A DNA stretch of 64,000 nucleotides from Syntrophomonadaceae bacterium (GCA_035647815.1 DASRMR010000020.1:12870-76869); one strand, 5' to 3'. Positions 40,768 through 54,068 are shown, counted from the stretch's first letter. The notes: a model not told the origin generated them from the sequence alone. Made by a program: numbers and translations.

Positions 40768-41073
40768 ATGCTCAGATCAGTAACGGTGAAATTGCATCAG
40801 GATTTGTTTAGGCAAATCAGGGTGATTGCAGAAAAAAAAGGAGAAACGATTTCTGATACGATTAGATATTTGTTGAAACGAGGGCTTGAGGAAAGGATCT
40901 ATGAAGAAAACACAGAATTGATTGCTAGTTTCATCCGGCGGGAGATGGATCATGCAATTCGATCCTATGCTATTTATCCCAGCCTCGATAATGTTGAACA
41001 CCCGAATAATAGCGCATTTACAGAAAGGTTGATCTTAGTTAGGTCTAATAAAGATGAAAATCTACCGAGCTAG
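40768..41073 (+). CDS. Ribbon-helix-helix (CopG/Arc-like) protein
   Basis: N-terminal RSVTVKLHQDLFRQIRVIAEKKGETISDTIRYLLKRGL fits the beta-strand/helix/helix RHH pattern. 101 aa. Confidence 0.55.
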   Translation: MLRSVTVKLHQDLFRQIRVIAEKKGETISDTIRYLLKRGLEERIYEENTELIASFIRREMDHAIRSYAIYPSLDNVEHPNNSAFTERLILVRSNKDENLPS

Positions 41074-41129: not shown

Positions 41130-42356
41130 GTGCATTATAAAACAAGGAAAATGATTTTAATACTTTTTCTGATTATTAGTTTAATAGCCTTGACAGGCTG
41201 CCAAAAGTCGATTGATTTTGATGAAAAGGCCGATTTTAACACCATGGTAGAAGAGGCTGAGGGAACACTAGTTACCTTTTATGGTTGGGGGGGAGACGAT
41301 CAGCAGAATAAATGGATCGATACCGTGGTTACTCCTACAGTTAAAGAAAAATATGATATCACGCTAAAAAGAGTCCCTATAGATATTGATCAGGTTCTAA
41401 GTAAACTTTCTGGGGAAAAGCAGGCCAACAAGACAAAAGGCAGTATCGATATTATTTGGATCAATGGTGAAAACTTCTATTCCGCCAAAGAGAATGGATT
41501 CCTGCATGGGCCTTTTACCCATAAATTACCTAATTACGAAAAATATATGAACCCTAATGATGAAGAAGTTACCAAGGATTTTGGATTTCCTATTGAAGGC
41601 TATGAAGCACCGTTCAGTAAAGCTCAGTTGGTTTTAATTAAAGATGCTGCAACTACCCCTGAAACACCAAAAAATACGGCAGAATTACTCGCCTATGCTA
41701 AGAAATATAAGGGGAAAGTCACTTATCCTGCACCGCCCGACTTTACTGGCAGTGCCTTTGTTAGAAATATCATTTATGACATTGTAGGTTTTGAAGAGCT
41801 GAATACCATAAAAGCAGATAAAGCTAAAATTAAACAAACTATCATGCCTGCGATTGAATATATGAGGGAGCTGAATCAGTATCTTTGGAACGAAGGCAAG
41901 ACTTTTCCTGCAACTGTTGCACAACTAGATAATATGTTTGCTGATGGGGAAGTCGTTATGAATATAAGTTACGCTCCCTATTCTGTTGCTAATTTTATTG
42001 CTAACGGGACATACAGGGAGACAGTTCAAGCATTTCAGTTCGATAAAGGGACTATCGGTAATACTAATTACCTTGCCATTGCTCAGAATGCTCCTAACAA
42101 ACAAGGTGCACTCGTGGTTATTAATGAGATTCTTTCAGCGGAAATGCAGGCTTCTAAATTAAGGCATCTTAAGGCTTTGCCAGTAGTTGACTATAACAAA
42201 TTAAGTTTAGCAGAAAAACAGCTCTTTGATGAAGTGGAAATGGGGGAAGGTTGCATCTCGCAGGATGAGCTACTTTCTAAGAGAATACCAGAAATTCCTG
42301 CTAATCTTGTTCCGATTATCGAAGAAATATGGCAGGAAGAAGTCGTGAAAAAATAG
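41130..42356 (+). CDS. ABC transporter substrate-binding lipoprotein (YnjB/COG4134-like, tentative)
   Basis: Lipobox LTGC, about 408 aa, and FYGWGGDDQQNKWID near the N-terminus as in YnjB-type binding proteins. GGAGG RBS precedes GTG 41130. Confidence 0.75.
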   Translation: MHYKTRKMILILFLIISLIALTGCQKSIDFDEKADFNTMVEEAEGTLVTFYGWGGDDQQNKWIDTVVTPTVKEKYDITLKRVPIDIDQVLSKLSGEKQANKTKGSIDIIWINGENFYSAKENGFLHGPFTHKLPNYEKYMNPNDEEVTKDFGFPIEGYEAPFSKAQLVLIKDAATTPETPKNTAELLAYAKKYKGKVTYPAPPDFTGSAFVRNIIYDIVGFEELNTIKADKAKIKQTIMPAIEYMRELNQYLWNEGKTFPATVAQLDNMFADGEVVMNISYAPYSVANFIANGTYRETVQAFQFDKGTIGNTNYLAIAQNAPNKQGALVVINEILSAEMQASKLRHLKALPVVDYNKLSLAEKQLFDEVEMGEGCISQDELLSKRIPEIPANLVPIIEEIWQEEVVKK

Positions 42357-42374
42357 TCGTCAAGAGGTGGTTAG

Positions 42375-43253
42375 ATGAACAAATCCAGAGTCGCACCTTA
42401 TTTATTGCTCCTTCCTGTATATTTGTTAAGCCTGTTGTTTATTATTGGTATCGGCAATGGGATTTTACAAAGTTTCGGGGTGATTCCATCGCTGGGGCTA
42501 AATACGCCAACACTTGATTATTATGTTGAAATTTTTAAGCGTAAGGAATTACTATCTGCGATTGGGCTTAGCTTTTACGTTGCATTGGCTTCTTCTTTAC
42601 TTGCTACAGTGATTGGTGTGTTGCTTTGTGCAGCGTTGGTAATGGGGGGGTTAGCAAAGGGAAAAGCTGGGCAAGTTTTAAAAATACCTATCATGATCCC
42701 CCATACTGTTGTGGCATTATTTATCATCAGTTTGTTTTCTCAAAGTGGACTTTTAGCGCGTTTATTTTATGCCATGGGAATAATCGGTTCTCAGGAGAGT
42801 TTTCCTTCGATACTCTATACGAGTAATGGGATAGGCATTATTTTGGCCTATTTATGGAAGGAAATCCCCTTTGTTGTTTTCTTTGTAATCTCTATCATGT
42901 CAAATATTAGCTCGACACTAGGGGAGGCAGCGGAGAATCTAGGGGCATCAAAGTGGAGAGCTTTTAGGAGTGTTACCCTTCCGCTTTGTATGCCGGCTAT
43001 TAAAAATGCTTTTTTAATAATTTTTGTGTATTCATTAGGTGCATATGAATTGCCCTATTTATTGGGGGCAACCGTACCCAAGATGTTGCCCATACAAGCT
43101 TTTATAGAATACACTCATCCTGATTTATTGCATCGCCCGTATGCAATGGCTATGAATGGTATTGTATTCTTTATTTCTTTCTTAGTTGCTTTACTGTATT
43201 ACCGTTTTTTACAGCATGATAAGAACCATAAGATAGGGAGGACTAATTTATGA
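42375..43253 (+). CDS. ABC transporter permease
   Basis: Six predicted TM segments and an EAA-loop-like sequence EAAENLGASKWRAFRSVTLP. Confidence 0.85.
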   Translation: MNKSRVAPYLLLLPVYLLSLLFIIGIGNGILQSFGVIPSLGLNTPTLDYYVEIFKRKELLSAIGLSFYVALASSLLATVIGVLLCAALVMGGLAKGKAGQVLKIPIMIPHTVVALFIISLFSQSGLLARLFYAMGIIGSQESFPSILYTSNGIGIILAYLWKEIPFVVFFVISIMSNISSTLGEAAENLGASKWRAFRSVTLPLCMPAIKNAFLIIFVYSLGAYELPYLLGATVPKMLPIQAFIEYTHPDLLHRPYAMAMNGIVFFISFLVALLYYRFLQHDKNHKIGRTNL

Positions 43254-44062
43254 ATAGAGGCAAAAAAATCGTTCTAAAAATGTTTGTCTATTTCAGTGTT
43301 TTGTCAGTACTGATCCCTATTATGGTGATTGCGATTTGGAGTGTATCGGGAAGATGGGCTTGGCCCCAGCTGTTTCCAGATAGTTTTTCTTTGCGGGGGA
43401 TAAACGAATTATTCGGTGGTTATTCTGGTGCTGTGCAAGTTTTAGGATCAAGTATTGCCATCTCATTAATTGTCGCGCTTTTAGCCGTTATTATTGGTGT
43501 GATGACTGCCAGAGCCTTAGTTTTCTATGATTTTAGAGGCAAAAGTTTAGTAAGCTTCGGAGTTATTTTACCGATTATTATTCCTAGTACGGTTTTCGCG
43601 ATGGGCATACATGTCCTATTCATTAAAATGGGTCTATCCGATACTGTTTTGGGTGTCATAATCGTGCACTTAATTTGCTCTTTACCGTATGCTATTAAGA
43701 TCATAACCGACATGACTGCAGTAATTGGAAAAAAGTTGGAAGAGCAGGCCAGTGTTCTCGGAGCTACTCCGGGCCAAATCCTTAAGGATATTACTATTCC
43801 TTGTCTTTTGCCAGGTTTGATATCTTCGGCTAGCTTGGCTTATATTATATCTTTCGGTCAATATTTTATTACATTGATTATTGGCGGAGGAAGTGTAAAA
43901 ACCTTTTCCATGTTGATGGTACCTTATTTGCAAAGCGGTGATAGGACAGTTGCTTCCGCCTATAGTATGGTGTTTATTTGTTCAACATTAATAATTTTTA
44001 TCGTTCTTGAAAAAACAGCTAACAAATTTAACAAAAATGGAAATGGGGGTTTTTTCGCATGA
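43250..44062 (+). CDS. ABC transporter permease
   Basis: Polytopic, with an EAA-like loop EEQASVLGATPGQILKDITIP. Translationally coupled to its neighbours (ATGA overlaps). Confidence 0.85.
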   Translation: MNRGKKIVLKMFVYFSVLSVLIPIMVIAIWSVSGRWAWPQLFPDSFSLRGINELFGGYSGAVQVLGSSIAISLIVALLAVIIGVMTARALVFYDFRGKSLVSFGVILPIIIPSTVFAMGIHVLFIKMGLSDTVLGVIIVHLICSLPYAIKIITDMTAVIGKKLEEQASVLGATPGQILKDITIPCLLPGLISSASLAYIISFGQYFITLIIGGGSVKTFSMLMVPYLQSGDRTVASAYSMVFICSTLIIFIVLEKTANKFNKNGNGGFFA

Positions 44063-45084
44063 AATTTAAGAGAGGAAGCTCCTCGGAGCTTGTATTGAAA
44101 AATATATTTGTTTCTCTGGGAGATCAATTAATTTTGGATGATGTTAATCTAGTAGTGAAAAAAGGAGAGTTAGTCTCTCTCTTAGGGCCATCAGGTTGTG
44201 GCAAAACCACCATGCTTAAAACTATATCCGGATTGTTGCAACCAGATAGAGGAGACATTTTCATGGATGATGTCAATGTTACCCAGGAAACCTCCTGCAA
44301 GCGAGGTGCGGTAATTGTGTTTCAAGATTTACGGCTATTTCCAAATATGACCGTCGAGGAAAATGTGGCTTATCCACTTAAACTACAAGGTATTGATGGG
44401 AAGAAGCGTCGTGATAAGGTGCAAAAGTTGCTTGAAAATGTACAACTAGATGGATATGAAAAACGTAGTATTTATGAGATATCGGGTGGTCAAGTTCAAC
44501 GAGTGGCATTGGCCAGGGCGGTTGCTGCGAATCCAAATATATTGCTTTTAGATGAGCCATTTTCAAGTTTAGACGGAAACCTTCGAGAGGATATGCGCGA
44601 GTTATTGCTTAATTTACACAGGACTTTTGACATTACTACAGTTTTGGTTACTCATGATCAGCAGGAAGCTTTAATGATGTCTGATCGAATTGCGGTGATG
44701 GGCAATGGCCAAATTATTCAATATGATTCGCCCGCAGTTATTTATAATCAGCCTGCCAATAAAGAAGTAGCGGACTATTTTGGGGGTGGTAATTATATTA
44801 CTGGAAGAGTGAAACAAGGTGTTTTTAGGAGTGAACAACTTACGTTTCCCGTAGCAAAGGCAGATGGATTATATCAGGCTCTTTTTCGCCCTTCAGCACT
44901 AAAGCCGATATCTGGAGCAAATTATTCAGTACAATATGTTCGGTATTTAGGTGAGAGCTGGCAAATCGAGGTGGAAAGGCTAGGTAGTCGGCTTCTCCTT
45001 TCACTGCCATCAGATTATTACTTGAAACCTGGTGATCTGTTAGACATTGAGTTCGACCTTGAAAAGGTCGTGATGATTGCTTAA
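44059..45084 (+). CDS. ABC transporter ATP-binding protein (PotA/CysA-like with C-terminal regulatory domain)
   Basis: Walker A GPSGCGKTT, Q-loop, signature SGGQVQRVALARA, Walker B LLLDEPFS and H-loop VTHDQ. Confidence 0.92.
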   Translation: MKFKRGSSSELVLKNIFVSLGDQLILDDVNLVVKKGELVSLLGPSGCGKTTMLKTISGLLQPDRGDIFMDDVNVTQETSCKRGAVIVFQDLRLFPNMTVEENVAYPLKLQGIDGKKRRDKVQKLLENVQLDGYEKRSIYEISGGQVQRVALARAVAANPNILLLDEPFSSLDGNLREDMRELLLNLHRTFDITTVLVTHDQQEALMMSDRIAVMGNGQIIQYDSPAVIYNQPANKEVADYFGGGNYITGRVKQGVFRSEQLTFPVAKADGLYQALFRPSALKPISGANYSVQYVRYLGESWQIEVERLGSRLLLSLPSDYYLKPGDLLDIEFDLEKVVMIA

Positions 45085-45125
45085 ATAAAACAAGGTTAAG
45101 GCGATAAATGTGGAGGTGTAGATGA

Positions 45126-46013
45126 ATGAAAAAAATCTTATTTGATTGTGACAACACTATGGGGGTTGAAGGCTGCGATGTGGATGATGGGCTGGCTTTA
45201 TTATATCTGTTAGGTATAGATTTTATAGAAATTTGTGGAATAACTACTACCTACGGAAATAGTGATATAAACACGGTATATACGAACACCAAAAGAATGT
45301 TGCAAGAGATTGATCAGTCCGATATTCCGCTTTTAAAAGGCTGTCCGAATAAAGATGTTTTAAATAGTGATGCAGTTGATTTTATTCTGGAAACGGTGAA
45401 TAAAAACAAGGGAAACATTTCGATTCTCGCTACAGGGTCACTAACGAATCTATATGCGGCTTTTCTTAAAGATTCTACCCTGTTTGAAAAAACTTCTGAG
45501 TTGGTCATTATGGGTGGAATTACAGAAGATCTAATCATTAATGGTCAAGTTCTTGACGAATTAAATTTTTCTTGTGATCCTACGGCGACTGAATGTGTTT
45601 TAAGAAATGGTAAAAATGTCTCTGTGATAACTGGCAATAACTGCCTGGATGCGTTTTTTACTGAAAAAGAATTCAATGACAGGCTTTTATCAAGTCTTCA
45701 ACCAAGAGCTGAATATATTAGCCGTAAATGCAAGTATTGGTTTAGGGATATGATGGCGGCTTTCAATATAAACGGTTTTCATAATTGGGATGTTGTTGCA
45801 GCCGCTTTTATTACCAATCCATCACTCTTTACCAATCATTTTATAGAGATAAGCCCTACGCTTGAAGACCTGCGCAAAGGTTTGTTGAACAATGAAATTA
45901 GAAAAGACGAATTAGAATATACGATTAACTTTCCGACCATCAATAATATAGATGTCTTTACAGAAGATGTTTATAATGCGTGGTTAGGTTTAGATAGAAA
46001 TTATTTTTTTTAA
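45126..46013 (+). CDS. Nucleoside hydrolase (IUNH family)
   Basis: N-terminal aspartate cluster ILFDCDNTMGVEGCDVDDGLAL (DxDxxxDD fingerprint) and ATGSLTN. Confidence 0.8.
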   Translation: MKKILFDCDNTMGVEGCDVDDGLALLYLLGIDFIEICGITTTYGNSDINTVYTNTKRMLQEIDQSDIPLLKGCPNKDVLNSDAVDFILETVNKNKGNISILATGSLTNLYAAFLKDSTLFEKTSELVIMGGITEDLIINGQVLDELNFSCDPTATECVLRNGKNVSVITGNNCLDAFFTEKEFNDRLLSSLQPRAEYISRKCKYWFRDMMAAFNINGFHNWDVVAAAFITNPSLFTNHFIEISPTLEDLRKGLLNNEIRKDELEYTINFPTINNIDVFTEDVYNAWLGLDRNYFF

Positions 46014-46026
46014 AAAGGAGTTATAC

Positions 46027-47034
46027 ATGCTTAATCAAGAACTATTCCAGACTGTGAAAACTTATGTGAATGAAAAGGAATTTAAATCCTGCCTAGGTTT
46101 AAGCGGAGAGGTAGAAGTGCAGTTCCTAGCACAGGGTGAATATAATCTGAATTATGTGTTGAAAAATCGGCAAAAGCGCTTTGTGTTCAGGGTCAACACA
46201 GCTAGCCAGATGCAGCTTGAAAATCAGATTGCTTACGAATATAAGGCTTTGCAGTTGCTAAAACGATCTGGCGTAACTCCTCGTCCTTATTACCTAGATG
46301 ATCAGTTGCAAAAGATTCCTTACGGTGTTTTGGTGATGGAATACCTTCCTGGTGAGCCACTTGATTACCGTTGTGATCTTATTTCGGCTGCTAGTACTTT
46401 AGCTAACATTCATGGTTTGGCATCTGATCCCGCTGAAACACAGTTTCTTATAAGGGAACCAGGGCCTTTTACAGGGATATATAATGAAGCAAGCCGAATG
46501 CTTGTTTCCTATTTTAAAGACCCTGAGGCTGACATAGAGGTGCGAGATCTGCTAGAAAAGGCACTCATAAAAGCAGATGATAGGCGAAAAGGCGAAAAAT
46601 ATTTACTGCAGGAACCCTGTCTGGCCGTTATTAATACAGAAGTGAATTCACATAATTTTATCGTTAATCGACAAGCAAACACTTGCCACCTCATTGACTG
46701 GGAAAAACCTATTTATGGTGAACCTGCTCAGGACTTAAGCATGTTTTTAATCGCCACGAGTACATTGTGGAAACAAAATTACCGTCTTAGTTTTGACGAA
46801 GAACAGGGGTTTTTAAATGCCTACCTTAAAAACTCATCTTGGTGTCCTTATCAAGACACTTTGTTTGATCGGGTCGAGATGTTTAAATACTTCAACTATC
46901 TACGAGCTATATCCTGGTGTGCGATGGCTTGGACTGAATATCGTAAACCTGGGCGACTCATCGTTAATCAGGATACTTATCAAAAGATAGAGTCATACCT
47001 ACAACCTGATTTTATTAGATCTAGCATTCAATAA
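46027..47034 (+). CDS. APH/choline-kinase-family phosphotransferase (small-molecule kinase)
   Basis: Nucleotide-loop-like AQGEYNLNYVL, Brenner-type catalytic segment SHNFIVNRQANTCHLIDWEKPIYGEPAQDLS (H.N....N...IDWE). Confidence 0.75.
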   Translation: MLNQELFQTVKTYVNEKEFKSCLGLSGEVEVQFLAQGEYNLNYVLKNRQKRFVFRVNTASQMQLENQIAYEYKALQLLKRSGVTPRPYYLDDQLQKIPYGVLVMEYLPGEPLDYRCDLISAASTLANIHGLASDPAETQFLIREPGPFTGIYNEASRMLVSYFKDPEADIEVRDLLEKALIKADDRRKGEKYLLQEPCLAVINTEVNSHNFIVNRQANTCHLIDWEKPIYGEPAQDLSMFLIATSTLWKQNYRLSFDEEQGFLNAYLKNSSWCPYQDTLFDRVEMFKYFNYLRAISWCAMAWTEYRKPGRLIVNQDTYQKIESYLQPDFIRSSIQ

Positions 47035-47071: not shown

Positions 47072-47087
47072 TGGTATGTTTTTTGCA
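47072..47087 (+). promoter_or_regulatory. Sigma-54 -24/-12 promoter (TGGTATGTTTTTTGCA)
   Basis: GG-N10-GC spacing is correct with a TTGCA -12 box. It lies 38 nt after the kinase stop and 166 nt before the CCG-protein ATG. Confidence 0.65.
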
Positions 47088-47253
47088 TAAAGTATATTTA
47101 TAACTCAAATATATTTGTTGTTCTTTTGCTTGTGTAACTTCTTAATCAGCCATCGAGATACACTGTAGAGGCTTTGTGTATCCCAATTGTTAAACACACA
47201 AATAAAAATCGGGATACAGTTTATTAGGAATAGATGAAGGGAGTGTTTTAATT

Positions 47254-48387
47254 ATGCGTGACAACGAAGAAAAAAATCCAATTAATGAGCTTATTGAACA
47301 ATGTTCGGATTGCGGCGCATGCAGTGATATTTGTTCTTTACTTGAAGAAATAGGGGAGAGTCCTGCAACAATTGCTGCCAGGGGGGCTACCGTAGAGGAA
47401 GCCTTTTCCTGCTCCCTATGTGAACTGTGTGAATCGGTGTGTCCTCTGGACTTGAGTCCCGTCCAGATGTTTCAGGCGAAAAGGAATGAGGCGGTAGCAA
47501 ATGATGAGATTGATATCGATGATTACCGTTATTTATTTCCGGATCGTCCAATGAATGTAATGAGTCTATTTCGGCAGGTATATGGTGTCGATTATCAAGA
47601 TTTAAACCAAACCAAAGTAACTAAGACTGCCTTTTTTCCGGGGTGTACGATGATGACATATTCCCCTGACTTAACGCGCAAGGTTTTTGCGACTTTATCA
47701 AAAAGCTATTCAGACATCGTTTTCCTTGAGGATTGTTGTGGCAAGCCTCTCTACCAAATAGGCGTAACTAAACGGGGTGATAAAAACAGAGAACATTTGC
47801 GTGATAAAATAAAAAGTTTAGGAATTAAACGCTTGGTGGTAGCCTGTCCGAATTGTTATTACGAATTGAGAAAAGTCTTTAGCGAATTTGACATTGAGTT
47901 GCTCACTGTTTATGAAGTGTTCAAGGAACAAGGACACAAGACAACATCAAATAATATGAGGAAATGCACCGTGCACGATTCCTGTCCAGATCGTTTTGAT
48001 GGGATTTTTGGCCAGCAGGTCAGACAAGCTTTACGTGAGGCTAATTTCCCAATTCTTGAAATGGAGCATAGCCAGGAAACAACTATTTGTTGTGGCAGTG
48101 GGGGACAGTTGAGTCACTTCCGGCCTGATTTTGCTGAAGAACTAGTTGAACTCAGACTCGAAGAGGCTAAAAAAACAGGAGCGGAAATCCTTATTGCTTA
48201 TTGTCACAGTTGTGTTTTAAATTTTGCGAGAGACCCTTCTGGAATCAAAGTTATGCATGTGCTCAATCTTTTGCTTGATTTTGAAGAAGATTATGACGGA
48301 GTGAAAAACAAAGCGGGTGAAATGTTTGAAGGACCTGCTGGAGTAGAAAACTGGGAGAAAATTATGAAGAAATCTGAGGAGGAGTAG
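47254..48387 (+). CDS. Fe-S oxidoreductase with two 4Fe-4S motifs and two CCG (HdrB/GlpC-like) domains
   Basis: CSDCGACSDIC and CSLCELCESVCP are followed by FFPGCTMMTY...EDCCGKP and VHDSCPDR...TICCGSGG. Confidence 0.85.
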   Translation: MRDNEEKNPINELIEQCSDCGACSDICSLLEEIGESPATIAARGATVEEAFSCSLCELCESVCPLDLSPVQMFQAKRNEAVANDEIDIDDYRYLFPDRPMNVMSLFRQVYGVDYQDLNQTKVTKTAFFPGCTMMTYSPDLTRKVFATLSKSYSDIVFLEDCCGKPLYQIGVTKRGDKNREHLRDKIKSLGIKRLVVACPNCYYELRKVFSEFDIELLTVYEVFKEQGHKTTSNNMRKCTVHDSCPDRFDGIFGQQVRQALREANFPILEMEHSQETTICCGSGGQLSHFRPDFAEELVELRLEEAKKTGAEILIAYCHSCVLNFARDPSGIKVMHVLNLLLDFEEDYDGVKNKAGEMFEGPAGVENWEKIMKKSEEE

Positions 48388-48392
48388 AACAT

Positions 48393-49343
48393 ATGAACAA
48401 CGCTGAACTTTCTGAAATATATAAACAAACGCTGACTTTAAGATGGTCGCCTGTAGCTGTACGTCTCATGCGCCCGGGCGAAGAAATTCCCGATGGGGTG
48501 ATGGAGCCACCCATGCCTTTGCGCTTTTGCCAATCCATCATTGTAGCTCGGCGAGGGAATAGCCTTTATATGCCGGCACGTAAACATGCCTGTCCTGATG
48601 GATCGGGGATTTTGGGTATAACGCAAATGTCTGAAAAATTAAAATCAGGTGATTTGTATCTTCTTTTCAAGAAATTGCCGAATATAGAAATTTGCCAAAA
48701 GATGATTGCCAGCCGTCCAGAATTTGAACCTGGTACACATGTAGCAACATTAGTTGCGCCCCTAGAAATGGCTAACTTTGAACCAGATGTCGTTATTTTT
48801 ACCATGTGGCCAGAACAAGCTATGTGGATGTGTTGTGCGAAAACTTATGCAACTGGCGAAAGACAGACATTTCATACATCTGGCTATAATTCAACTTGTA
48901 CTGACCTTACTGTACAGGTGATGAAAAGTGGCGAGATGAATGTGTCCTTTGGTTGTTATGGTGGTAGAGCTTCTACTGAAATCGATGATTTTGAACAGTA
49001 TGTATCGATACCATACCAACAGTTACCAATACTAGCGGAATCCTTAAAGAAGTTAGCGGTAAAAAGCATACCAGAGGAAAGAAGAAAAATTTACCTTCCG
49101 CCTGTCATGGATAATGTAACCCTCCCGGGGCAGGAAAAAGAAGGCCAAATCGAAGTGATACTGAATGAAAGCTTATGTAATGGTTGCGGTCTTTGTGAAG
49201 CTTTCTGTCCCGCCAGCGTATTTGAGATGAAAGATGTAAATGGAAAACAAAAGGCGATAGTTGTTAATCCGAAAAAATGTAGTGCCTGTTATACTTGTGT
49301 AGGCCAATGTTCTCAGAGAGCCATACAGCTAAAGTTGGTCTGA
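48393..49343 (+). CDS. DUF169-like protein fused to a C-terminal 2x[4Fe-4S] ferredoxin domain
   Basis: The N-terminal ~250 aa resemble DUF169 (PVAVRLMRPGEEIPDG...FCQ...). The C-terminus carries CNGCGLCEAFCP and CSACYTCVGQCS. Confidence 0.65.
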   Translation: MNNAELSEIYKQTLTLRWSPVAVRLMRPGEEIPDGVMEPPMPLRFCQSIIVARRGNSLYMPARKHACPDGSGILGITQMSEKLKSGDLYLLFKKLPNIEICQKMIASRPEFEPGTHVATLVAPLEMANFEPDVVIFTMWPEQAMWMCCAKTYATGERQTFHTSGYNSTCTDLTVQVMKSGEMNVSFGCYGGRASTEIDDFEQYVSIPYQQLPILAESLKKLAVKSIPEERRKIYLPPVMDNVTLPGQEKEGQIEVILNESLCNGCGLCEAFCPASVFEMKDVNGKQKAIVVNPKKCSACYTCVGQCSQRAIQLKLV

Positions 49344-49603
49344 TTATTCTACATTTATTGTTTGTGCCAATTTCATAATAAGAAATATTTTTCAAAATGA
49401 AAATATAAACGAAACTAGATAATATTCGAATTCCGCTATCTGGGGAACAAATCGTACCGATGATTTTGTATCTCAGATAGTTTTTCGAGTATCTGGGAAA
49501 TCCTAACATGATTCATAGTTCCCCTGATTGCTGGATTCCTAATTTTTAAACGAAAACAAATATGTTGGCTTGGGTGCTATTGATCCTGAAGTTTTCAATG
49601 GCA

Positions 49604-49813
49604 CTATATTTGTAGGCATAATCCTGCGGTATCTTTATTAGTCCTTGCACTATATCCTATTATTTCCTTATTATATAAATTAAACAATATGCATATATAA
49701 GCTCATTTTGTTTCTACTCCAACATAAGTGAGATCACTCACTACAACCTCCAGCTTTTCCTCGTCATTAAACCCCCTAGCCACTATATTATTAGCTCCTG
49801 CTGAAACGATATC
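49604..49813 (-). pseudogene. IS3-family transposase (DDE integrase core) remnant
   Basis: The minus-strand frame reads DIVSAGANNIVARGFNDEEKLEVVVSDLTYVGVETK*AYICILFNLYNKEIIGYSARTNKDTAGLCLQI*. This resembles the IS3 OrfB segment ...NQxWVTDITYI...GWxYLxxVxDLxSRxIVGWS..., with an in-frame TGA where Trp is expected. No intact ORF and no inverted repeats were seen. Confidence 0.5.
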
Positions 49814-50087
49814 TAAAAAATGCGGCGGGTAAGGTAACTAGTGGATTTTTAGTAGGAATTGAAAAGACACTAGCAATATTGCAGATGCAATTGCTTGGCT
49901 AAATATCGCTGAATCTTGTTAAACTTTTATCAAACAGTTATAATGATGTTAATATGTTTAAATATATGATAATCGAAAACATTTAACATTTCATCCCCTT
50001 CTTCTCTTTGTTTTTGAGTAAGATTAAACAGAAACATTGCATTTAACTTATTTTTTGTAATCCATCCGCTAATTGGGAGGAATTTAT

Positions 50088-52121
50088 TTGAATACTAGTA
50101 ACATGATTCATACGCCCTTAAGTTTGGAATTTAATAACGAAATTAAAAAACTAAAAAAGACCTATTATTACAACAACAAGGATTTTTCATCCTTAAATTC
50201 GTTACCTAGCCAAATAACCGCTTCGTGGAACAATTCTCGAAAGAACGGTATTGATCCTTTTTCTAATTTTACGGATATAGCTTATGAAAAAGTAGAAATG
50301 GATAAGATATCCGATGAAAGTAAAATCCTGTTAAAGGCAGCTACACCACTTATCGAAAAAATTGTTAGTCACTTATTTCCTATAAATGGTTTATGCTTGG
50401 CAGACAAAAATGGACTTGTTCTATTAGTTAAAGAGGCAGCGCGAAGTCCAATAAAGAAAAATGCATTTTCAGAAGGTATTGTTCTAAGTGAAGAAAATAT
50501 TGGCACTATCTCACAGAACTTGTGCATTAAATATCAAAAACCGGTGCAATTATTTGGTGCCGCTAATTATCATTCCTTTTTGGAAGATGATCTTAGTATG
50601 TCTACTCCAATTTTCAATACAAACAATGAATTAATAGGAGCATTGACATTAAATATAGTCACAAAAGAAGAAATCGAAGATGCGTATCTTGAAAGAACAT
50701 ATACTTATTTAATGGGATGGGCTAAATCTCTTGCTCATGCAATTCAATCCCAAGTAATGTTAATAAACAAAAATCAATCATTTACCATTACTAATGAAGC
50801 CTTTGAAACGGTTATATCGGCTGTTGATAAAGGAATTTTAGCTATTGATTGCAATGGAAATATAAAACATGTAAATAAAGAAAGCGAAAGGATTCTAGGA
50901 GATAGTAAAGAATCTATAATAAAAAATAATATTTCCGAATATATAGATAATACTCGCATTTTAGATAGGATAATTAACCAAAAAAAGACTATAGAAAGCA
51001 TGGAGAATATAAAAGGGAAGAACAAACCGAAATTAAAATATTTTATAAAGATTTCGCCAATTCTTGATCAAAACCAAAATGTAGAAGGGGCCGTTTTGAC
51101 CATACCTTTGGTATCAGAAAACAGCACTACAATTAATAAGCAGACAGGGAATACAGCGATCTACGATTTTGAAAAAATAATTGGTAACAGTGATTCCTTA
51201 ACTAAGACTATAAACATTGCTAAAAAGTTTGCCTATACAAATAATAATGTATTGATTGTAGGTGAAAGTGGGACTGGCAAAGAACTTTTTGCACAGTCTA
51301 TACACAATCAAAGCAGGGCAAGAAGGCCCTTTATAGCAATAAATTGCGCTTCAGTTTCCCATAGCCTAATTGAAAGTGAACTATTTGGATATGAAGGTGG
51401 CACATTTACAGGTGCGGATAAAAAGGGAAGGAAGGGGAAAATTGAATTAGCTAATGGGGGCACCCTTTTCTTAGATGAAATTGGTGATATGCCATTGGAA
51501 ATACAGCCTATTTTACTACGAGTGCTTGAAGATAAAAAAATAATGCGCCTAGGAGGAAATAGATATATTCCTGTAGATTTTAGGCTTGTAACTGCGACTA
51601 ATAAAGACTTATTGCAAGCCGTTAGGGATAAAGAATTTCGAGAAGATTTATATTATCGAATAGCAACTTTTAAAGTCATAATCCCTCCTTTAAGAAAAAG
51701 AGAAGGAGATATCGAATTGTTAGCAAAGTATTTTATTGAAGAAGCATGTCAAGAAATGGAAAGATCAATACCTGTTTTAAGTAAAGAAACACTTGATTAT
51801 TTGAACAATCATTATTGGAGTGGCAATGTAAGGCAACTTCAAAATGTTATAATCTATGCAGTTAGTATGTTGAATCCAGCTGAAACATTAATAGGGATTA
51901 ACCATTTACCTAGTGATATGTTTCTTAATAATAATACCCCGCATGAAGATTTTAATAATATAAGTTCTGTAACAACTTTGCGGGATTTAGAAAAAGAAGC
52001 TATTGAAAACGCCTTGGCAATTTGTGATTTCAATGTTGAGGACGCAGCTATACAGCTTGGAATAAGTAGAGCTACATTGTATAGGCGAATAAAAGAATAC
52101 AATATTGTTTTAAAAAAATAA
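50088..52121 (+). CDS. Sigma-54-dependent transcriptional activator (sensory N-terminal domain + PAS + AAA+ + Fis-type HTH)
   Basis: Walker A GESGTGKE, ESELFGYEGGTFTGA (GAFTGA-type sigma-54 contact loop), GGTLFLDEIGDM, RLVTATN and C-terminal AAIQLGISRATLYRRIKEY. GGGAGG RBS lies 7 nt before TTG 50088, with ATG 50103 as an alternative. Confidence 0.93.
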   Translation: MNTSNMIHTPLSLEFNNEIKKLKKTYYYNNKDFSSLNSLPSQITASWNNSRKNGIDPFSNFTDIAYEKVEMDKISDESKILLKAATPLIEKIVSHLFPINGLCLADKNGLVLLVKEAARSPIKKNAFSEGIVLSEENIGTISQNLCIKYQKPVQLFGAANYHSFLEDDLSMSTPIFNTNNELIGALTLNIVTKEEIEDAYLERTYTYLMGWAKSLAHAIQSQVMLINKNQSFTITNEAFETVISAVDKGILAIDCNGNIKHVNKESERILGDSKESIIKNNISEYIDNTRILDRIINQKKTIESMENIKGKNKPKLKYFIKISPILDQNQNVEGAVLTIPLVSENSTTINKQTGNTAIYDFEKIIGNSDSLTKTINIAKKFAYTNNNVLIVGESGTGKELFAQSIHNQSRARRPFIAINCASVSHSLIESELFGYEGGTFTGADKKGRKGKIELANGGTLFLDEIGDMPLEIQPILLRVLEDKKIMRLGGNRYIPVDFRLVTATNKDLLQAVRDKEFREDLYYRIATFKVIIPPLRKREGDIELLAKYFIEEACQEMERSIPVLSKETLDYLNNHYWSGNVRQLQNVIIYAVSMLNPAETLIGINHLPSDMFLNNNTPHEDFNNISSVTTLRDLEKEAIENALAICDFNVEDAAIQLGISRATLYRRIKEYNIVLKK

Positions 52122-52189: not shown

Positions 52190-53578
52190 TTACAAACCAA
52201 CAATAGGCATCATGAAAGAAACCCAGAATGTTAGTAGCAAAATAAACACAATTGTAGGTACTAAACCTGTTTTGAAAACATCCCCCATAGTGTAATGGCC
52301 AGGACTATAAGTTATCATTAAAACAGGGTTTAAAGGTAAGAGATAGCAAACACCAACACCCATAGAAACGATTAGAGTAATAGCGACAGGTGAAAATAGA
52401 CCAGTAGACATTCCAACTGCTGCTAATGGTGGTATTAGAAGTCCTACTAAAGCAGGTCCCATTGGGAATACTGCATGAAGAAGAACTACAAATGTTGTTA
52501 CAATTAATAGGACGACCAGACCAGATAAGCCAGATACACTAGCAACTAATCCCTCTGCCATCCAACTAGCTCCGCCAGTTGCTAAAACTCCGCCTGCAAC
52601 TGACATAATACATCCGATTACTAGAAGTACGCTCCATGGCACTCCTTTATTATAATCATCCCAAGTCATTAAATCTATACCGGGAACGAAAAACAGGATT
52701 AACCCTAGCAAAGCAACCATGGTGGAATTGATTTGCGGGAACCATGCCCCAGCAAACCATAAAACTAACAAAAGACCAATAATAGAAACTAATTTAATTT
52801 CTTGGACACTGAAGGGGCCTGCGGCCGCTACTTCTTTTTCTAAAACAGCAAGTGCCTCTTTATTAACTGGTTCTGGTTTAAAAACTTTGACAATAAAGAA
52901 CCACTCAACAAATACCATTACTAGTGCAATAGGATATGCAATTACAGTCCATTGAAGAAAGGAAATAGAAAGTCCAGCAACATCTGACAATACTTGCATG
53001 CCCATCACATTGATTGCTGTACCAATTGGTGTAGCAATACCACCTGTCATAACTGCAAGTGGAATACCTAACATAAGTGCTTTTACTAAATTAGATTCCC
53101 TTGGTTTTGCACCCATTGCTGCGACTAAGGTAAAAGCAATTCCTAAAAACAACATAGTTGTGGTAGTGTTTTGCATTATTGATGATACTAAACAACCAGC
53201 AAGCATGAAGCCGAGAACTAATTTTTCAGAGTTATCACCCGCCCAGTTTAAAAGAACACCTGTAATTCGGGCTCCTAAATTTGTATTCATCATAGCTATT
53301 GTTAAAGAGAAAGCGCCGAGGATAAAAAGCAAAACTGGTGACATAAATCCTGCAACTGCTTCGGGAAATGTTATTACATCCAATATAGGCATTAATAATA
53401 AAAGTATAAACCCAGTTATAGCAGTAGGAAAAGATTCAAATAACCAAAGGGAAACTCCACTAAATAATACTGCTAGTCCCATTTTCCCTGCAGTTGATAA
53501 TCCTTCGGGATCGGGAAGAAAATAAGCTGTTACTAATATTAAGGCTGCTATTACTATGCCGGTGATTCTTTTTGTCAT
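52190..53578 (-). CDS. DASS/SLC13-type anion (di/tricarboxylate-like) transporter, paralog 1
   Basis: 462-aa polytopic protein, alignable along its full length by eye with the 56666..58054 product (both 462 aa and both ending in a shared ...VGL / ...LGL C-terminus). Confidence 0.8.
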   Translation of the reverse strand: MTKRITGIVIAALILVTAYFLPDPEGLSTAGKMGLAVLFSGVSLWLFESFPTAITGFILLLLMPILDVITFPEAVAGFMSPVLLFILGAFSLTIAMMNTNLGARITGVLLNWAGDNSEKLVLGFMLAGCLVSSIMQNTTTTMLFLGIAFTLVAAMGAKPRESNLVKALMLGIPLAVMTGGIATPIGTAINVMGMQVLSDVAGLSISFLQWTVIAYPIALVMVFVEWFFIVKVFKPEPVNKEALAVLEKEVAAAGPFSVQEIKLVSIIGLLLVLWFAGAWFPQINSTMVALLGLILFFVPGIDLMTWDDYNKGVPWSVLLVIGCIMSVAGGVLATGGASWMAEGLVASVSGLSGLVVLLIVTTFVVLLHAVFPMGPALVGLLIPPLAAVGMSTGLFSPVAITLIVSMGVGVCYLLPLNPVLMITYSPGHYTMGDVFKTGLVPTIVFILLLTFWVSFMMPIVGL

Positions 53579-53736: not shown

Positions 53737-54066
53737 TTAACGAAGAGTAAATAATAACATTTTATCATCAGTTAGTTTTTTCTTTAATTCTTCTATAGGG
53801 CCAATTTCTATAACTCCAGTTTGACAATGTTGGACGCAACTAGGCAACTTCCCCTTTTCCACTCGTTCAGTGCAACGAGTGCAATAGTCTGTAGGCGATA
53901 CAAAATAATCGAATTGCCATTTTTCGCCGACGGGGAAGGGCCCAATTTTTCTTACTTCTAGCCCGCATGTTTCAGGATCATAGTTGTTTTCTTGTTGGCA
54001 AGCTATTTCACAAGCATGGCAACCAGTACAGAATTTATAGTTTACAAATAAACCATATTGAGCCAC
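53737..54066 (-). CDS. Small 4Fe-4S ferredoxin-type subunit of the molybdopterin oxidoreductase
   Basis: 109 aa with CTGCHACEIAC and CTRC...CVQHC motifs. Starts 3 nt after the stop of the catalytic subunit gene. Confidence 0.75.
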   Translation of the reverse strand: MAQYGLFVNYKFCTGCHACEIACQQENNYDPETCGLEVRKIGPFPVGEKWQFDYFVSPTDYCTRCTERVEKGKLPSCVQHCQTGVIEIGPIEELKKKLTDDKMLLFTLR

Positions 54067-54068
54067 TA

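What the first reader, a model, noticed from the sequence alone, without database searches (positions are those of the whole stretch)
47072..49343. CCG-domain Fe-S protein with a DUF169-ferredoxin fusion, present as a sigma-54-driven pair and duplicated at 63047..64000
The 47254 gene encodes two 4Fe-4S motifs plus two HdrB/GlpC-type CCG domains. It is followed 5 nt later by a DUF169-like protein carrying a C-terminal 2x[4Fe-4S] ferredoxin domain.

A clearly colinear paralog of the CCG protein starts at 63118 behind another sigma-54 promoter and runs off the window; a second DUF169 partner may follow. The two copies bracket the molybdoenzyme block. DUF169 has no assigned function. The recurrent pairing under the same sigma factor suggests a dedicated redox or electron-transfer partner, or a thiol/disulfide-type reductase, for the Mo enzymes.
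Basis: partly seen in the sequence, partly recalled or inferred. Interest (0 to 1): 0.7.

Follow-up and report, generated by a model that had tools for sequence, protein, structure and literature searches.

The report
HdrD-like protein paired with DUF169-ferredoxin
A real, widely conserved but uncharacterised two-gene iron-sulfur module, an HdrD-like protein plus a DUF169-ferredoxin fusion whose DUF169 fold matches no solved structure, sits in a sigma-54-controlled island of molybdenum/tungsten enzymes; only the HdrD-like gene is duplicated, and that copy partners a molybdoenzyme.

Summary
The genes are as described. 47254..48387 encodes an HdrD-like protein with 2 ferredoxin-type [4Fe-4S] motifs and 2 complete CCG domains. 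Five nt later, 48393..49343 encodes DUF169 with a C-terminal 2x[4Fe-4S] ferredoxin. A -24/-12 sigma-54 motif lies at 47072.

The pair is not duplicated. An identical contig extends 8.4 kb past the window. There the second CCG gene (47% identity, an old paralog lineage) is followed by an acetylene-hydratase-like MopB, an FeS protein, NrfD, a radical SAM protein and another MopB. No DUF169 follows.

In 58 genomes (Syntrophomonadaceae, Desulfitobacterium, Sporomusa, Neomoorella, Geobacter), a CCG gene directly precedes DUF169-Fd in 38 of 52 evaluable loci. The constant neighbours are DUF2064, a Cys-tailed GNAT and a PhnP-like metallo-beta-lactamase. MopB or Moco-biosynthesis genes lie within 10 kb in 26 of 27 fully flanked loci, behind recurrent sigma-54 motifs.

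Fusion proteins exist for CCG+MopB and for Fd+DUF169+GNAT. A confident DUF169 model has no PDB fold relative. The family keeps four invariant Cys and six basic residues. Stand-alone DUF169 genes lie in arsenic-resistance islands.

Best reading: a two-subunit Fe-S redox enzyme serving this Mo/W regulon. Its chemistry is unknown.

The parts
47072..47087 (+). sigma-54-type -24/-12 promoter motif TGGTATGTTTTTTGCA (GG-N10-GC), 166 nt upstream of the CCG-A start codon
   Evidence: The same motif class sits upstream of the equivalent operon, usually before the DUF2064 gene, in 16 related loci.
47254..48387 (+). CCG-A: HdrD-like Fe-S protein, 377 aa. It has 2x CX2CX2CX3C motifs (C17-C27, C53-C63) and two complete CCG domains (C131, C161, C162, C198, C201 and C244, C279, C280, C317, C320).
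   Evidence: Pfam; NCBIfam (best matches NF045663, TfrB, LdhH and GlpC, all below cut-off); 18 Cys invariant in 48 of 48 homologs.
48393..49343 (+). DUF169-ferredoxin fusion, 316 aa. DUF169 domain about 48423..49040; 2x[4Fe-4S] ferredoxin domain about 49155..49328. Probably translationally coupled to CCG-A (inferred from the 5-nt gap and a ribosome-binding site overlapping the upstream stop).
   Evidence: more than 400 homologs, the 120 listed at 61-84% identity; family-wide invariant C46, C67, C169, C188, R44, R53, R157, R192, K224, R230; AF2 model pLDDT 92.5 with no PDB fold match.
50073..52121 (+). sigma-54 enhancer-binding activator (PAS, AAA+ Sigma54_activat, HTH_8). Candidate regulator of the island.
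   Evidence: homologous activators occur in 7 of 55 related loci.
53737..56279 (-). Acetylene-hydratase/catechol-dehydroxylase-like MopB (736 aa, 54069..56279, no Tat signal) plus a small 109-aa Fer4_11 protein (53737..54066).
   Evidence: PDB 2e7z E 5e-84; the architecture matches the soluble Gordonibacter-type dehydroxylases described in PMC7028382.
56454..56469 (-). sigma-54-like motif TGGCATGAATTATGCA upstream of MopB-736, one mismatch to the consensus
58226..61621 (-). Pyrogallol-hydroxytransferase-like large (861 aa) and small (268 aa) subunits
   Evidence: AhtL-like_1st, Molybdopterin, Fer4_11, CarboxypepD_reg
61958..61973 (-). sigma-54-like motif TGGCATGTTTTATGCA upstream of the Zn-ribbon ORF and the AhtL-like operon, one mismatch
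62131..62146 (+). sigma-54-type motif TGGCACATTTTTTGCA upstream of the GNAT gene
   Evidence: the same arrangement occurs in 12 related loci
62240..62707 (+). GNAT acetyltransferase with a C-terminal CxxCx5C tail (cluster c5). A conserved neighbour of DUF169-Fd, and fused to Fd-DUF169 in P0244.
63047..63062 (+). sigma-54-type motif TGGCATGCTTTTTGCA upstream of CCG-B
63118..64000 (+). CCG-B (partial in the window; about 380 aa in full on L001). Paralog of CCG-A and first gene of a CCG-MopB-FeS-NrfD-rSAM-MopB operon.
40649..40664 (+). sigma-54-type motif TGGCATATTATTTGCA upstream of a small 101-aa ORF with no Pfam match (40768..41073) and the YnjB-like ABC transporter / nucleoside hydrolase / APH-like kinase genes 41130..47034. 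These genes recur near DUF169-Fd in other genomes.

Best explanation
The two genes encode a two-subunit iron-sulfur redox enzyme.

Shown from sequence:
- CCG-A has the full cluster-binding complement of an HdrC+HdrB (HdrD-type) protein: two cubane [4Fe-4S] motifs and two five-Cys CCG motifs.
- DUF169-Fd carries its own 2x[4Fe-4S] ferredoxin domain on a DUF169 domain.
- The DUF169 family-wide invariant residues are four Cys, each at the N-terminal end of a predicted helix, and six Arg/Lys.
- The genes lie 5 nt apart behind a sigma-54 motif, an arrangement that suggests translational coupling.

Inferred:
- DUF169 is the ligand-handling, catalytic domain. Its Cys/Arg site would bind a small anionic, thiophilic ligand, or a further Fe-S cluster.
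- CCG-A is its reductase. It would deliver electrons through the ferredoxin clusters, or re-reduce a disulfide on DUF169 at its HdrB-type site, as DsrK does for DsrC and TfrB does in thiol:fumarate reductase.
- The paralog CCG-B plays the equivalent role for an acetylene-hydratase-like MopB. The two CCG proteins are therefore parallel adapters for two different catalytic subunits.

The pair works with DUF2064 (a nucleotidyltransferase-like fold, stated from general knowledge of the family and not tested here), a Cys-tailed GNAT and a PhnP-like phosphodiesterase, as a shared accessory module of a sigma-54 regulon. That regulon comprises cytoplasmic Mo/W enzymes (acetylene-hydratase/catechol-dehydroxylase-like and pyrogallol-transhydroxylase-like) and Moco biosynthesis genes. 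The most likely role is a cofactor, metal or small-molecule processing step needed by those enzymes, rather than bulk electron transfer.
For: - Domain content and invariant Cys.
- Coupling and promoter.
- Conserved adjacency: CCG directly upstream in 38 of 52 loci. DUF2064 is present in 46 of 55 loci, MBL in 45, GNAT in 38.
- In 27 fully flanked loci, MBL occurs in 26, DUF2064 in 23, GNAT in 21, Moco genes in 20 and MopB in 16. MopB or Moco genes occur in 26 of 27.
- Fusion proteins: Fd-DUF169-GNAT (P0244) and CCG-MopB (P0497).
- CCG-B forms a separate clade and is followed by MopB.
- The closest relative has MoeA, MoaA, MoaC, MogA, MOSC, SufC, SufBD, MobB, DUF2064, CCG, DUF169Fd and CMD in one same-strand run.
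- Geobacter/Pelobacter loci have MoeA-like, MoaA, NifU, DUF2064, DUF169Fd, GNAT, MBL in that order on one strand behind a sigma-54 motif.
- Sigma-54 motifs recur before DUF2064 (16 loci), MopB (20), GNAT (12) and MoeA-like genes (11).
- This genome has one pair but at least four MopB genes.
- A ferredoxin domain is fused N- or C-terminally to DUF169 in different lineages, which marks DUF169 as a redox-active domain.
- Stand-alone DUF169 genes are flanked by thioredoxin-like, DsbD and CMD thiol-redox proteins, and once by another HdrD-like CCG protein.
Against: - No biochemical datum exists for any DUF169 protein. The 19 papers in the held library that contain a word starting with 'DUF169' (several are unrelated DUF16xx families) give no function.
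- CCG is absent from 10 of 52 loci, where DUF2064 directly precedes DUF169-Fd. The complex is therefore not obligatory.
- No complex prediction could be run.
- Whether the four Cys bind a cluster, a metal(loid) or form disulfides is unknown. I could not inspect model coordinates.
- Moco riboswitches in related loci lie after the DUF169 unit and before moaA/moeA. The unit is therefore not itself under Moco control, and its closeness to Moco genes may only reflect co-location with Mo enzymes.
- In the window the pair is separated from DUF2064, and no MBL gene was found in the 72 kb examined.
Confidence: 0.42

Rival explanations
1. The pair is simply the physiological electron-transfer chain, or a thiol:acceptor oxidoreductase module, that feeds or drains the neighbouring cytoplasmic Mo/W enzymes. 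DUF169-Fd would act as a specialised ferredoxin-like carrier.
For: - The CCG-MopB fusion P0497 and the CCG-B to MopB-FeS-NrfD operon.
- MopB-FeS-NrfD directly follows CCG-DUF169Fd in about 20 loci.
- The soluble acetylene-hydratase-related dehydroxylases have only a small 4Fe-4S partner protein described in PMC7028382.
- Common sigma-54 control.
Against: - DUF169 is a 210-residue domain that is highly conserved (the 120 listed homologs are 61-84% identical across phyla) and has catalytic-looking invariant residues. That is unlike a mere carrier.
- Its tightest partners are non-redox enzymes, and it is fused to a GNAT.
- 11 of 27 fully flanked loci have no MopB within 10 kb.
- There is one pair for at least four MopB genes here.
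- MopB has its own CCG-B paralog.
Confidence: 0.2
2. Metalloid or oxyanion handling. DUF169 is a Cys-based reductase or binding protein for an arsenic-type (organo)metalloid or a tetrahedral oxyanion. The Fd-fused form, with its HdrD-like reductase, would process such a compound in a pathway with the ArsS-type radical SAM enzyme, DUF2064, a nucleoside hydrolase and a kinase.
For: - All 6 stand-alone DUF169 proteins looked up (8 loci) lie among ArsR-type (HTH_5) regulator, ArsP_1 permease, DGC and/or thioredoxin-like genes. Three of the six contexts carry ACR3/SBF carriers, and three carry ArsC-like and/or ArsM genes, one of them also ArsA/ArsD.
- ArsM scores 342 bits against a cut-off of 263, and ACR3 scores 448 against 283.
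- An ArsS family member (TIGR04167, 436 bits against 300) occurs in 11 of 55 DUF169-Fd loci.
- DUF2064 is TIGR04282-like.
- A radical SAM + ArsM-like + DUF5714 fusion lies downstream of DUF169-Fd in a Geobacter locus, and DUF5714 also adjoins stand-alone DUF169.
- The invariant Cys4 plus Arg/Lys site.
Against: - No ArsR, Acr3, ArsC, ArsA/D or ArsP homolog occurs in any of the 58 DUF169-Fd loci or in the window.
- Regulation is by sigma-54 and a PAS activator, not by ArsR.
- The window and L001 have no ArsS. The radical SAM protein there is TrsS/Tes-like and below cut-off.
- The Mo link (26 of 27 loci) is far stronger than the ArsS link (8 of 27).
- The two DUF169 subfamilies share only 26-31% identity.
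Confidence: 0.15
3. No functional relationship. The adjacency is incidental, or the genes are decaying remnants in this genome.
For: - In the window the pair is detached from its usual DUF2064, GNAT and MBL neighbours.
- It is followed by 730 bp of non-coding DNA.
- An OYE pseudogene fragment nearby shows the island has been rearranged.
Against: - Both ORFs are intact, with all invariant residues present.
- Adjacency is conserved in 38 of 52 loci across Bacillota lineages (Syntrophomonadaceae, Peptococcaceae, Sporomusa, Neomoorella). The Geobacter/Pelobacter loci keep DUF169-Fd but lack an adjacent CCG gene.
- The gene arrangement suggests translational coupling.
- The promoter motif is conserved.
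Confidence: 0.03

Closest known systems
HdrD / HdrBC-type heterodisulfide reductase subunits and relatives (TfrB, DsrK, HmcF, TmcB, GlpC)
   Same: - Architecture of an N-terminal 2x[4Fe-4S] ferredoxin part plus two CCG domains.
- Both five-Cys motifs are complete, as in HdrB.
- TfrB, GlpC, HmcF, TmcB and DsrK all appear as partial NCBIfam matches.
   Different: - Every equivalog model scores far below its cut-off. Examples: TfrB 91 bits against 385, GlpC 58 against 278, DsrK 22 against 400.
- No HdrE, DsrM or HdrA partner is present in the window.
- The partner is a DUF169-ferredoxin for CCG-A, or an acetylene-hydratase-like MopB for CCG-B.
NCBIfam NF045663 'diclust_near_Sec' (pyridine nucleotide-disulfide oxidoreductase/dicluster-binding protein)
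   Same: Best NCBIfam match of CCG-A. It aligns over aa 52-346 to profile positions 354-638, at 169 bits and E 1e-49.
   Different: - The score is far below the 530-bit cut-off.
- CCG-A lacks the N-terminal flavoprotein half of that 759-position family.
Stand-alone DUF169 proteins of arsenic-resistance islands (Bacteroidota, Spirochaetota, Ignavibacteria, archaea)
   Same: - Same Pfam family.
- Same invariant Cys4 and Arg/Lys residues.
- Recurrent CMD, DUF5714 and CCG neighbours in both subfamilies.
   Different: - Only 26-31% identical.
- No ferredoxin domain.
- Sit among ArsR-type regulator genes with ArsP, Acr3, ArsM and ArsC. The window protein sits in a sigma-54 Mo/W regulon without any ars gene.
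Haft's 'rSAM/selenodomain-associated' set, now named arsenosugar biosynthesis (ArsS TIGR04167, TIGR04282, TIGR04283)
   Same: Related loci carry a true TIGR04167 member (436 bits) and a DUF2064/TIGR04282-like gene directly upstream of CCG-DUF169Fd.
   Different: - The DUF2064 protein is below the TIGR04282 cut-off (66 bits against 134).
- ArsS is present in only 11 of 55 loci and absent from the window and L001.
- No TIGR04283 homolog was seen.
Soluble acetylene-hydratase-related bis-MGD enzymes (Pelobacter acetylene hydratase; Gordonibacter Dodh-type catechol dehydroxylases). This describes the neighbouring Mo enzymes, not the pair.
   Same: - MopB-746 aligns over its full length to PDB 2e7z (E 1e-124), and MopB-736 at E 5e-84.
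- No Tat signal, a small 4Fe-4S partner and an adjacent transporter, as described for Dodh-type enzymes in PMC7028382.
   Different: - Activity is untested.
- One operon adds NrfD and a CCG protein.
- No published dehydroxylase cluster is reported with DUF169, as far as the held library shows.

Membership tests
HdrB/HdrD-type CCG proteins | Two CCG domains, each with the five-Cys motif C-X(29-39)-CCG-X(35-36)-CXXC | tested here: met
   C131, C161, C162, C198, C201 and C244, C279, C280, C317, C320. Pfam finds two CCG stretches. All are invariant in 48 of 48 homologs.
HdrB/HdrD-type CCG proteins | HdrC-like N-terminal part with two CX2CX2CX3C [4Fe-4S] motifs | tested here: met
   C17-C20-C23-C27 and C53-C56-C59-C63; Fer4_17 E 2e-7.
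HdrB/HdrD-type CCG proteins | Partner subunits of characterised members (HdrE or DsrM cytochrome b, or HdrA flavoprotein) encoded nearby | tested here: not met
   None among the annotated neighbours from 31.7 to 64 kb or in L001.
HdrB/HdrD-type CCG proteins | Passes a curated equivalog threshold (TfrB, GlpC, DsrK, HmcF, TmcB, NF045663) | tested here: not met
   The best score is 169 bits against a cut-off of 530. All others are lower.
HdrB/HdrD-type CCG proteins | Disulfide or heterodisulfide reductase activity at non-cubane clusters | not testable with these tools
   Needs biochemistry and EPR.
DUF169 (PF02596, COG2043) | Pfam gathering threshold over the full domain | tested here: met
   192.4 bits against 27, covering profile positions 3-208 of 209.
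DUF169 (PF02596, COG2043) | Family-wide invariant residues (C46, C67, C169, C188, R44, R53, R157, R192, K224, R230) | tested here: met
   50-sequence alignment spanning both subfamilies.
2x[4Fe-4S] bacterial ferredoxin domain | Two CX2CX2CX3C(P) motifs in about 55 residues | tested here: met
   C262-C265-C268-C272 and C296-C299-C302-C306. Matches Fer4, Fer4_7 and Fer4_10, and Foldseek matches to the HdrA, FwdG and PsaC ferredoxin folds.
sigma-54-dependent promoter | -24 GG and -12 GC elements spaced GG-N10-GC, consensus TGGCAC-N5-TTGCW | tested here: met
   63047 matches exactly and 47072 has one mismatch (TGGTAT). Four matches against 0.76 expected.
sigma-54-dependent promoter | Cognate enhancer-binding AAA+ activator and rpoN present | tested here: inconclusive
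   An activator gene lies at 50073..52121. rpoN is not in the window, but it is inserted between DUF2064 and CCG in 5 related loci. No shared upstream activator site was found.
sigma-54-dependent promoter | Mapped transcription start and RpoN dependence | not testable with these tools
   Needs 5'-RACE or RNA-seq and an rpoN mutant.
ars (arsenic resistance) operon | ArsR, Acr3/ArsB or ArsC encoded with the gene | tested here: not met
   No homologs occur in the window or in the 58 DUF169-Fd loci. The feature is met only for the stand-alone DUF169 subfamily.
ArsS/TIGR04282 'arsenosugar' set | A TIGR04167 radical SAM protein and a TIGR04282 transferase above cut-off in the same locus | tested here: not met
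   The window and L001 have no ArsS homolog. The L001 radical SAM protein is TrsS/Tes-like at 383 bits against 490. A DUF2064 representative scores 66 bits against 134. ArsS is present in 11 of 55 related loci only.

The most novel reading that the evidence does not exclude
DUF169 is a previously unrecognised enzyme fold: a Cys4/Arg-rich, redox-active site for thiophilic tetrahedral oxyanions or metalloids of the arsenate, molybdate or tungstate type. In arsenic islands it would be recycled by thioredoxin-like, CMD or DsbD proteins. In Mo/W-enzyme regulons it would be recycled by its own ferredoxin domain plus an HdrD-like reductase. The window pair would then carry out an undescribed metal- or cofactor-processing step needed to mature acetylene-hydratase/catechol-dehydroxylase-type enzymes. 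Its stand-alone cousins would be a missing arsenical reductase.
Probability: 0.12. Interest if true: 0.85.

Novelty: new variant of a known kind. Interest (0 to 1): 0.6.

Why it matters
- DUF169 is a family of at least 617 clusters at 50% identity, found in anaerobic bacteria and archaea. It has no assigned function and, on a confident model, no solved structural relative.
- This locus and its 58 relatives give the family a defined set of partners: an HdrD-like reductase, a Cys-tailed GNAT, DUF2064 and a PhnP-like hydrolase. They also give it a regulator class (sigma-54) and a physiological setting: cytoplasmic acetylene-hydratase/catechol-dehydroxylase-like Mo/W enzymes and Moco biosynthesis.
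- For the soluble enzymes of that class, the paper read here names only a small 4Fe-4S partner protein. From general knowledge, tungsten incorporation into recombinant acetylene hydratase is poor.
- The CCG-MopB fusion points to HdrD-like proteins as their redox subunits.
- The separate finding that stand-alone DUF169 sits in arsenic islands opens a testable link to arsenic biochemistry.

Tried and rejected
- PDB sequence search with DUF169-Fd returned only ferredoxin-domain hits.
- AF2 of the full protein with a shallow alignment was mediocre (pLDDT 74), and Foldseek matched only ferredoxin folds.
- AF2 of the DUF169 domain with a 50-sequence alignment was confident (pLDDT 92.5), but Foldseek against PDB gave nothing (best E 0.23, TM about 0.2).
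- Literature: 19 papers contain a word starting with 'DUF169' (several are unrelated DUF16xx families), one mentions COG2043, and none gives a function. Haft & Tolstoy 2025 (TrsS, MbdU) is not held. Searches on HdrD-like + MopB + NrfD and on acetylene-hydratase-like enzymes gave nothing on this system.
- I looked for a shared upstream activator site at the sigma-54 promoters. Only one palindrome was found, at 62980..63017, and it is not shared.
- Rfam found no riboswitch in the 166-nt leader or elsewhere in the island.
- Recent duplication of CCG is rejected. The copies are 47% identical and CCG-B falls in a separate clade with Desulfitobacterium and Desulfosporosinus copies.
- Membership of an ars operon is rejected for this subfamily.
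- I tried to extend the contig beyond L001 through the MopB-741 protein.
- I could not inspect model coordinates, so clustering of the four Cys in space is only inferred from their positions at helix N-termini.


Full report
**Observation**

- 47254..48387 encodes a 377-aa protein with a dicluster ferredoxin domain (Fer4_17, aa 16-68) and two PF02754 CCG stretches, E 3e-22.
- The motifs are C17/20/23/27, C53/56/59/63, C131/C161C162/C198/C201 and C244/C279C280/C317/C320. All 18 Cys are invariant in 48 of 48 homologs.
- The TAG stop ends at 48387 and the next ATG is at 48393. A GAGGAGGAG ribosome-binding site overlaps the stop.
- 48393..49343 encodes 316 aa: DUF169 (PF02596, 192 bits against a cut-off of 27, aa 11-216) plus a C-terminal 2x[4Fe-4S] ferredoxin domain.
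- TGGTATGTTTTTTGCA at 47072 and TGGCATGCTTTTTGCA at 63047 have the GG-N10-GC spacing of sigma-54 promoters.
- A degenerate -24/-12 pattern occurs four times in the window against 0.76 expected. All four are on the + strand, intergenic and upstream of genes: 40649, 47072, 62131 and 63047.
- With one mismatch, two more sites appear on the - strand upstream of the two molybdoenzyme operons, at 56454 and 61958.
- A PAS/AAA+/HTH_8 sigma-54 activator is encoded at 50073..52121.

**The claimed duplication**

The ORF from TTG 63118 is a colinear CCG paralog, 47% identical over 361 aa. A Logan contig, L001, is identical to the window over all 11,761 overlapping bases and continues 8.4 kb past position 64000.

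There CCG2 (about 380 aa) is followed by these genes:
- a 746-aa MopB
- a Fer4_11 protein
- NrfD
- a TrsS/Tes-like radical SAM protein
- a 741-aa MopB
- a small ORF behind another sigma-54 motif
- DUF2064

No DUF169 homolog or signature exists in L001 in any frame.

In a neighbour-joining tree, CCG2 groups with the 'second' CCG genes of Desulfitobacterium and Desulfosporosinus loci. In the window and in one of those loci (L028) the gene precedes MopB. CCG1 groups with the Syntrophomonadaceae CCG genes, which precede DUF169-Fd. These are two old paralog lineages, here called CCG-A and CCG-B.

**Source organism**

MopB-741 is 100% identical to a protein of a Syntrophomonadaceae MAG. The closest DUF169-Fd loci are Syntrophomonadaceae and Syntrophomonas MAGs at 76-78% identity. 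The window has 35% G+C.

**Conservation and context**

DUF169-Fd has more than 400 homologs; the 120 listed are 61-84% identical. They occur in Syntrophomonadaceae, Desulfosporosinus, Desulfitobacterium, Sporomusa, Neomoorella, Dehalobacterium and Geobacter/Pelobacter.

I fetched 58 genomic loci, called ORFs and clustered them.
- A CCG gene lies directly upstream on the same strand in 38 of 52 evaluable loci. In 10 others DUF2064 is directly upstream and CCG is missing.
- The usual order is [GNAT] DUF2064, CCG, DUF169Fd, [MopB, FeS, NrfD], GNAT, MBL, [flavin reductase-like], followed by MoaA, MoaC, MogA, MOSC, MoeA-like, MobA and MobB.
- Among 27 loci with full 10-kb flanks, MBL is present in 26, DUF2064 in 23, GNAT in 21, Moco-biosynthesis genes in 20, CCG in 19, MopB in 16 and ArsS in 8. 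Twenty-six of 27 have MopB and/or Moco genes.
- In the nearest relative (84% identity), a single same-strand run reads MoeA, MoaA, MoaC, MogA, MOSC, SufC, SufBD, MobB, DUF2064, CCG, DUF169Fd, CMD.
- Geobacter/Pelobacter loci read MoeA-like, MoaA, NifU, DUF2064, DUF169Fd, GNAT, MBL, flavin reductase..., ArsS, behind a sigma-54 motif.
- Across the loci the strict sigma-54 motif sits upstream of DUF2064 (16 loci), MopB (20), GNAT (12), MoeA-like genes (11) and MoaA (4).
- rpoN itself is inserted between DUF2064 and CCG in five loci.
- Moco riboswitches occur in related loci, but downstream of the DUF169 unit and before the moaA/moeA genes. None occurs in the window.

**Fusion proteins**

P0497, from a Thermoleophilia MAG, is 1110 aa. 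Its N-terminal part is Fer4_17 plus 2x CCG, homologous over its full length to CCG-A (31% identity) and CCG-B (28%). This part is fused to a MopB that is 59% identical to MopB-741.

P0244 is 582 aa and consists of a ferredoxin domain, DUF169 and a GNAT. The GNAT carries the same C-terminal CxxCx5C tail as the window GNAT at 62240..62707.

The ferredoxin domain is N-terminal to DUF169 in archaeal and Coriobacteriales members and C-terminal here.

**The DUF169 domain**

- The family is small: 617 clusters at 50% identity with E of 1e-3 or better, among 1.84 billion representatives.
- An alignment spanning the Fd-fused subfamily and the stand-alone subfamily (26-31% identity to the window protein) keeps these residues invariant: R44, C46, Q47, R53, G55, C67, D132, E141, W145, R157, T162, C169, D171, C188-Y-G-x-R192, E201, K224 and R230.
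- With that alignment, AF2 gives a confident alpha/beta model (pLDDT 92.5, pTM 0.90). Each of the four Cys lies at the N-terminal end of a helix.
- Foldseek against 350,542 PDB chains finds nothing (best E 0.23, TM about 0.2). Sequence search finds no solved relative either.

**Family-level lead**

All six stand-alone DUF169 proteins that I looked up (eight loci) lie among ArsR-type (HTH_5) regulator, ArsP_1 permease, DGC and/or thioredoxin-like genes.
- Other recurrent neighbours are DsbD and CMD.
- Three of the six contexts carry ACR3/SBF carriers; the one scored reaches 448 bits against a cut-off of 283.
- Three carry ArsC-like and/or ArsM genes. ArsM scores 342 bits against 263, and ArsC-like scores below its cut-off.
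- One island also has ArsA, ArsD and another HdrD/GlpC-like CCG protein.

In the Fd-fused subfamily:
- ArsS (TIGR04167, 436 bits against 300) is present in 11 of 55 loci.
- DUF2064 is TIGR04282-like (66 bits against 134).
- One Geobacter locus has a radical SAM + ArsM-like + DUF5714 fusion downstream.
- None of the 58 loci, nor the window, has ArsR, Acr3, ArsC, ArsA/D or ArsP.

**The neighbouring Mo enzymes**

- MopB-746 aligns over its full length to Pelobacter acetylene hydratase (PDB 2e7z, E 1e-124), and MopB-736 aligns at E 5e-84.
- None of these MopB proteins has a Tat signal.
- MopB-736 is paired with a 109-aa Fer4_11 protein and a DASS transporter.
- This matches the soluble Gordonibacter Dodh-type catechol dehydroxylases, whose closest characterised relative is acetylene hydratase (PMC7028382).
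- 59036..61621 and 58226..59032 resemble the pyrogallol hydroxytransferase large and small subunits.
- The island therefore looks like a sigma-54-controlled set of cytoplasmic Mo/W enzymes for polyphenol-type or unsaturated substrates. This is an inference.

**Interpretation**

Shown:
- Gene content, a gene arrangement that suggests translational coupling, conserved synteny, conserved promoter motifs, the fusion proteins and the invariant residues.

Inferred:
- CCG-A and DUF169-Fd form a two-subunit Fe-S redox enzyme. DUF169 is the catalytic or ligand-binding domain. CCG-A is its HdrD-type reductase and acts by electron transfer, by disulfide re-reduction, or both.
- CCG-B does the same job for an acetylene-hydratase-like MopB.
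- The pair acts with DUF2064, GNAT and MBL as a shared accessory module of the Mo/W regulon.

I prefer a processing or maturation role (0.42) over a plain electron-shuttle role (0.20) for four reasons:
- The tightest partners are non-redox enzymes.
- DUF169 is fused to a GNAT.
- 11 of 27 fully flanked loci lack a nearby MopB.
- One pair serves a genome with at least four MopB genes, and MopB has its own CCG paralog.

A metalloid or oxyanion-handling role (0.15) rests on family-level context and is not excluded. It could even be the same chemistry.

**Novelty**

The CCG protein is a new member of the HdrD-like class with new partners. DUF169 remains functionally and structurally uncharacterised in everything I could search. 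I found no description of the module as a whole, the sigma-54 regulon, the two fusion proteins or the arsenic-island link of stand-alone DUF169. I rate the finding a new variant of a known kind, with interest 0.6.

Noticed in passing
L062-L070 (stand-alone DUF169 loci): All six stand-alone DUF169 proteins looked up (about 255 aa, eight loci) lie among ArsR-type regulator, ArsP_1 permease, DGC and/or thioredoxin-like genes, with DsbD and CMD also recurrent. Three contexts have ACR3/SBF carriers and three have ArsC-like and/or ArsM genes. One island also has ArsA, ArsD and an HdrD/GlpC-like CCG protein. None of the papers in the held library that mention DUF169 reports this arsenic link.
   Followed up: partly
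window 53737..56279(-); L001 12236..14476 and 17325..19550: The MopB enzymes of the island are acetylene-hydratase-like (PDB 2e7z, E 1e-124 and 5e-84). They lack Tat signals and pair with a small 4Fe-4S protein and transporters, like the soluble Gordonibacter catechol dehydroxylases. One operon adds NrfD and a CCG protein.
   Followed up: partly
window 58226..61621(-): Pyrogallol-phloroglucinol hydroxytransferase-like large and small subunits (AhtL-like_1st; Fer4_11 + CarboxypepD_reg). They are flanked by two DASS (Na_sulph_symp) transporter genes at 52190..53578 and 56666..58054.
   Followed up: no
window 40649, 47072, 62131, 63047 (+); 56454, 61958 (-): Six sigma-54-type -24/-12 motifs lie within 23 kb, each upstream of an operon, with one activator gene at 50073..52121. 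This looks like a whole sigma-54 regulon island. No shared upstream activator site was found.
   Followed up: partly
P0497 (Thermoleophilia MAG, 1110 aa); P0244 (metagenome, 582 aa): Natural fusions: Fer4_17 + 2x CCG + acetylene-hydratase-like MopB, and ferredoxin + DUF169 + Cys-tailed GNAT.
   Followed up: yes
window 31675..35470: PNP_UDP_1 phosphorylase, IF-2B/MtnA-like isomerase, class II aldolase and an amidohydrolase. This is a DHAP-shunt-like salvage set for 5'-deoxyadenosine or methylthioadenosine. It lies next to MobB (35470..35964) and a MoeA-like gene (36116..37303).
   Followed up: no
window 41130..47034: A YnjB-like ABC transporter (PRK11622, 451 bits), a nucleoside hydrolase and an APH-like kinase lie directly upstream of the pair. 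The same set recurs near DUF169-Fd in about 10 other genomes (clusters c24, c12, c8, c31, c19).
   Followed up: partly
window 25607..25798(-): Cobalamin riboswitch (RF00174, 108.8 bits) upstream of an unannotated 383-aa ORF and an SLH/DUF4430 protein.
   Followed up: no
window about 62754..62905 (L001 10515..10666): A short OYE (Oxidored_FMN)-like pseudogene fragment lies between the GNAT gene and CCG-B. Together with 730 bp of non-coding DNA after DUF169-Fd (49344..50072), it suggests the island was rearranged relative to the canonical gene order.
   Followed up: no
L005 18686..18817; L019 12255..12388; L020 16628..16761: Moco (Mo/W) riboswitches occur in related loci, always after the DUF2064-CCG-DUF169Fd-...-MBL unit and before the moaA/moeA-like genes. 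In L005 the riboswitch lies directly behind a sigma-54 motif.
   Followed up: no
L031, L034, L043, L044, L060: The rpoN (sigma-54) gene itself is inserted between DUF2064 and the CCG gene in five loci (Peptococcaceae, Gracilibacteraceae and Bacillota MAGs).
   Followed up: no
L038 12204..15296: A Geobacter 1030-aa fusion of a radical SAM domain, an arsenite-methyltransferase-like domain (212 bits against 263) and DUF5714 (MbdU-like) lies downstream of the DUF169-Fd operon. DUF5714 also directly follows stand-alone DUF169 in an archaeal locus (L063).
   Followed up: partly
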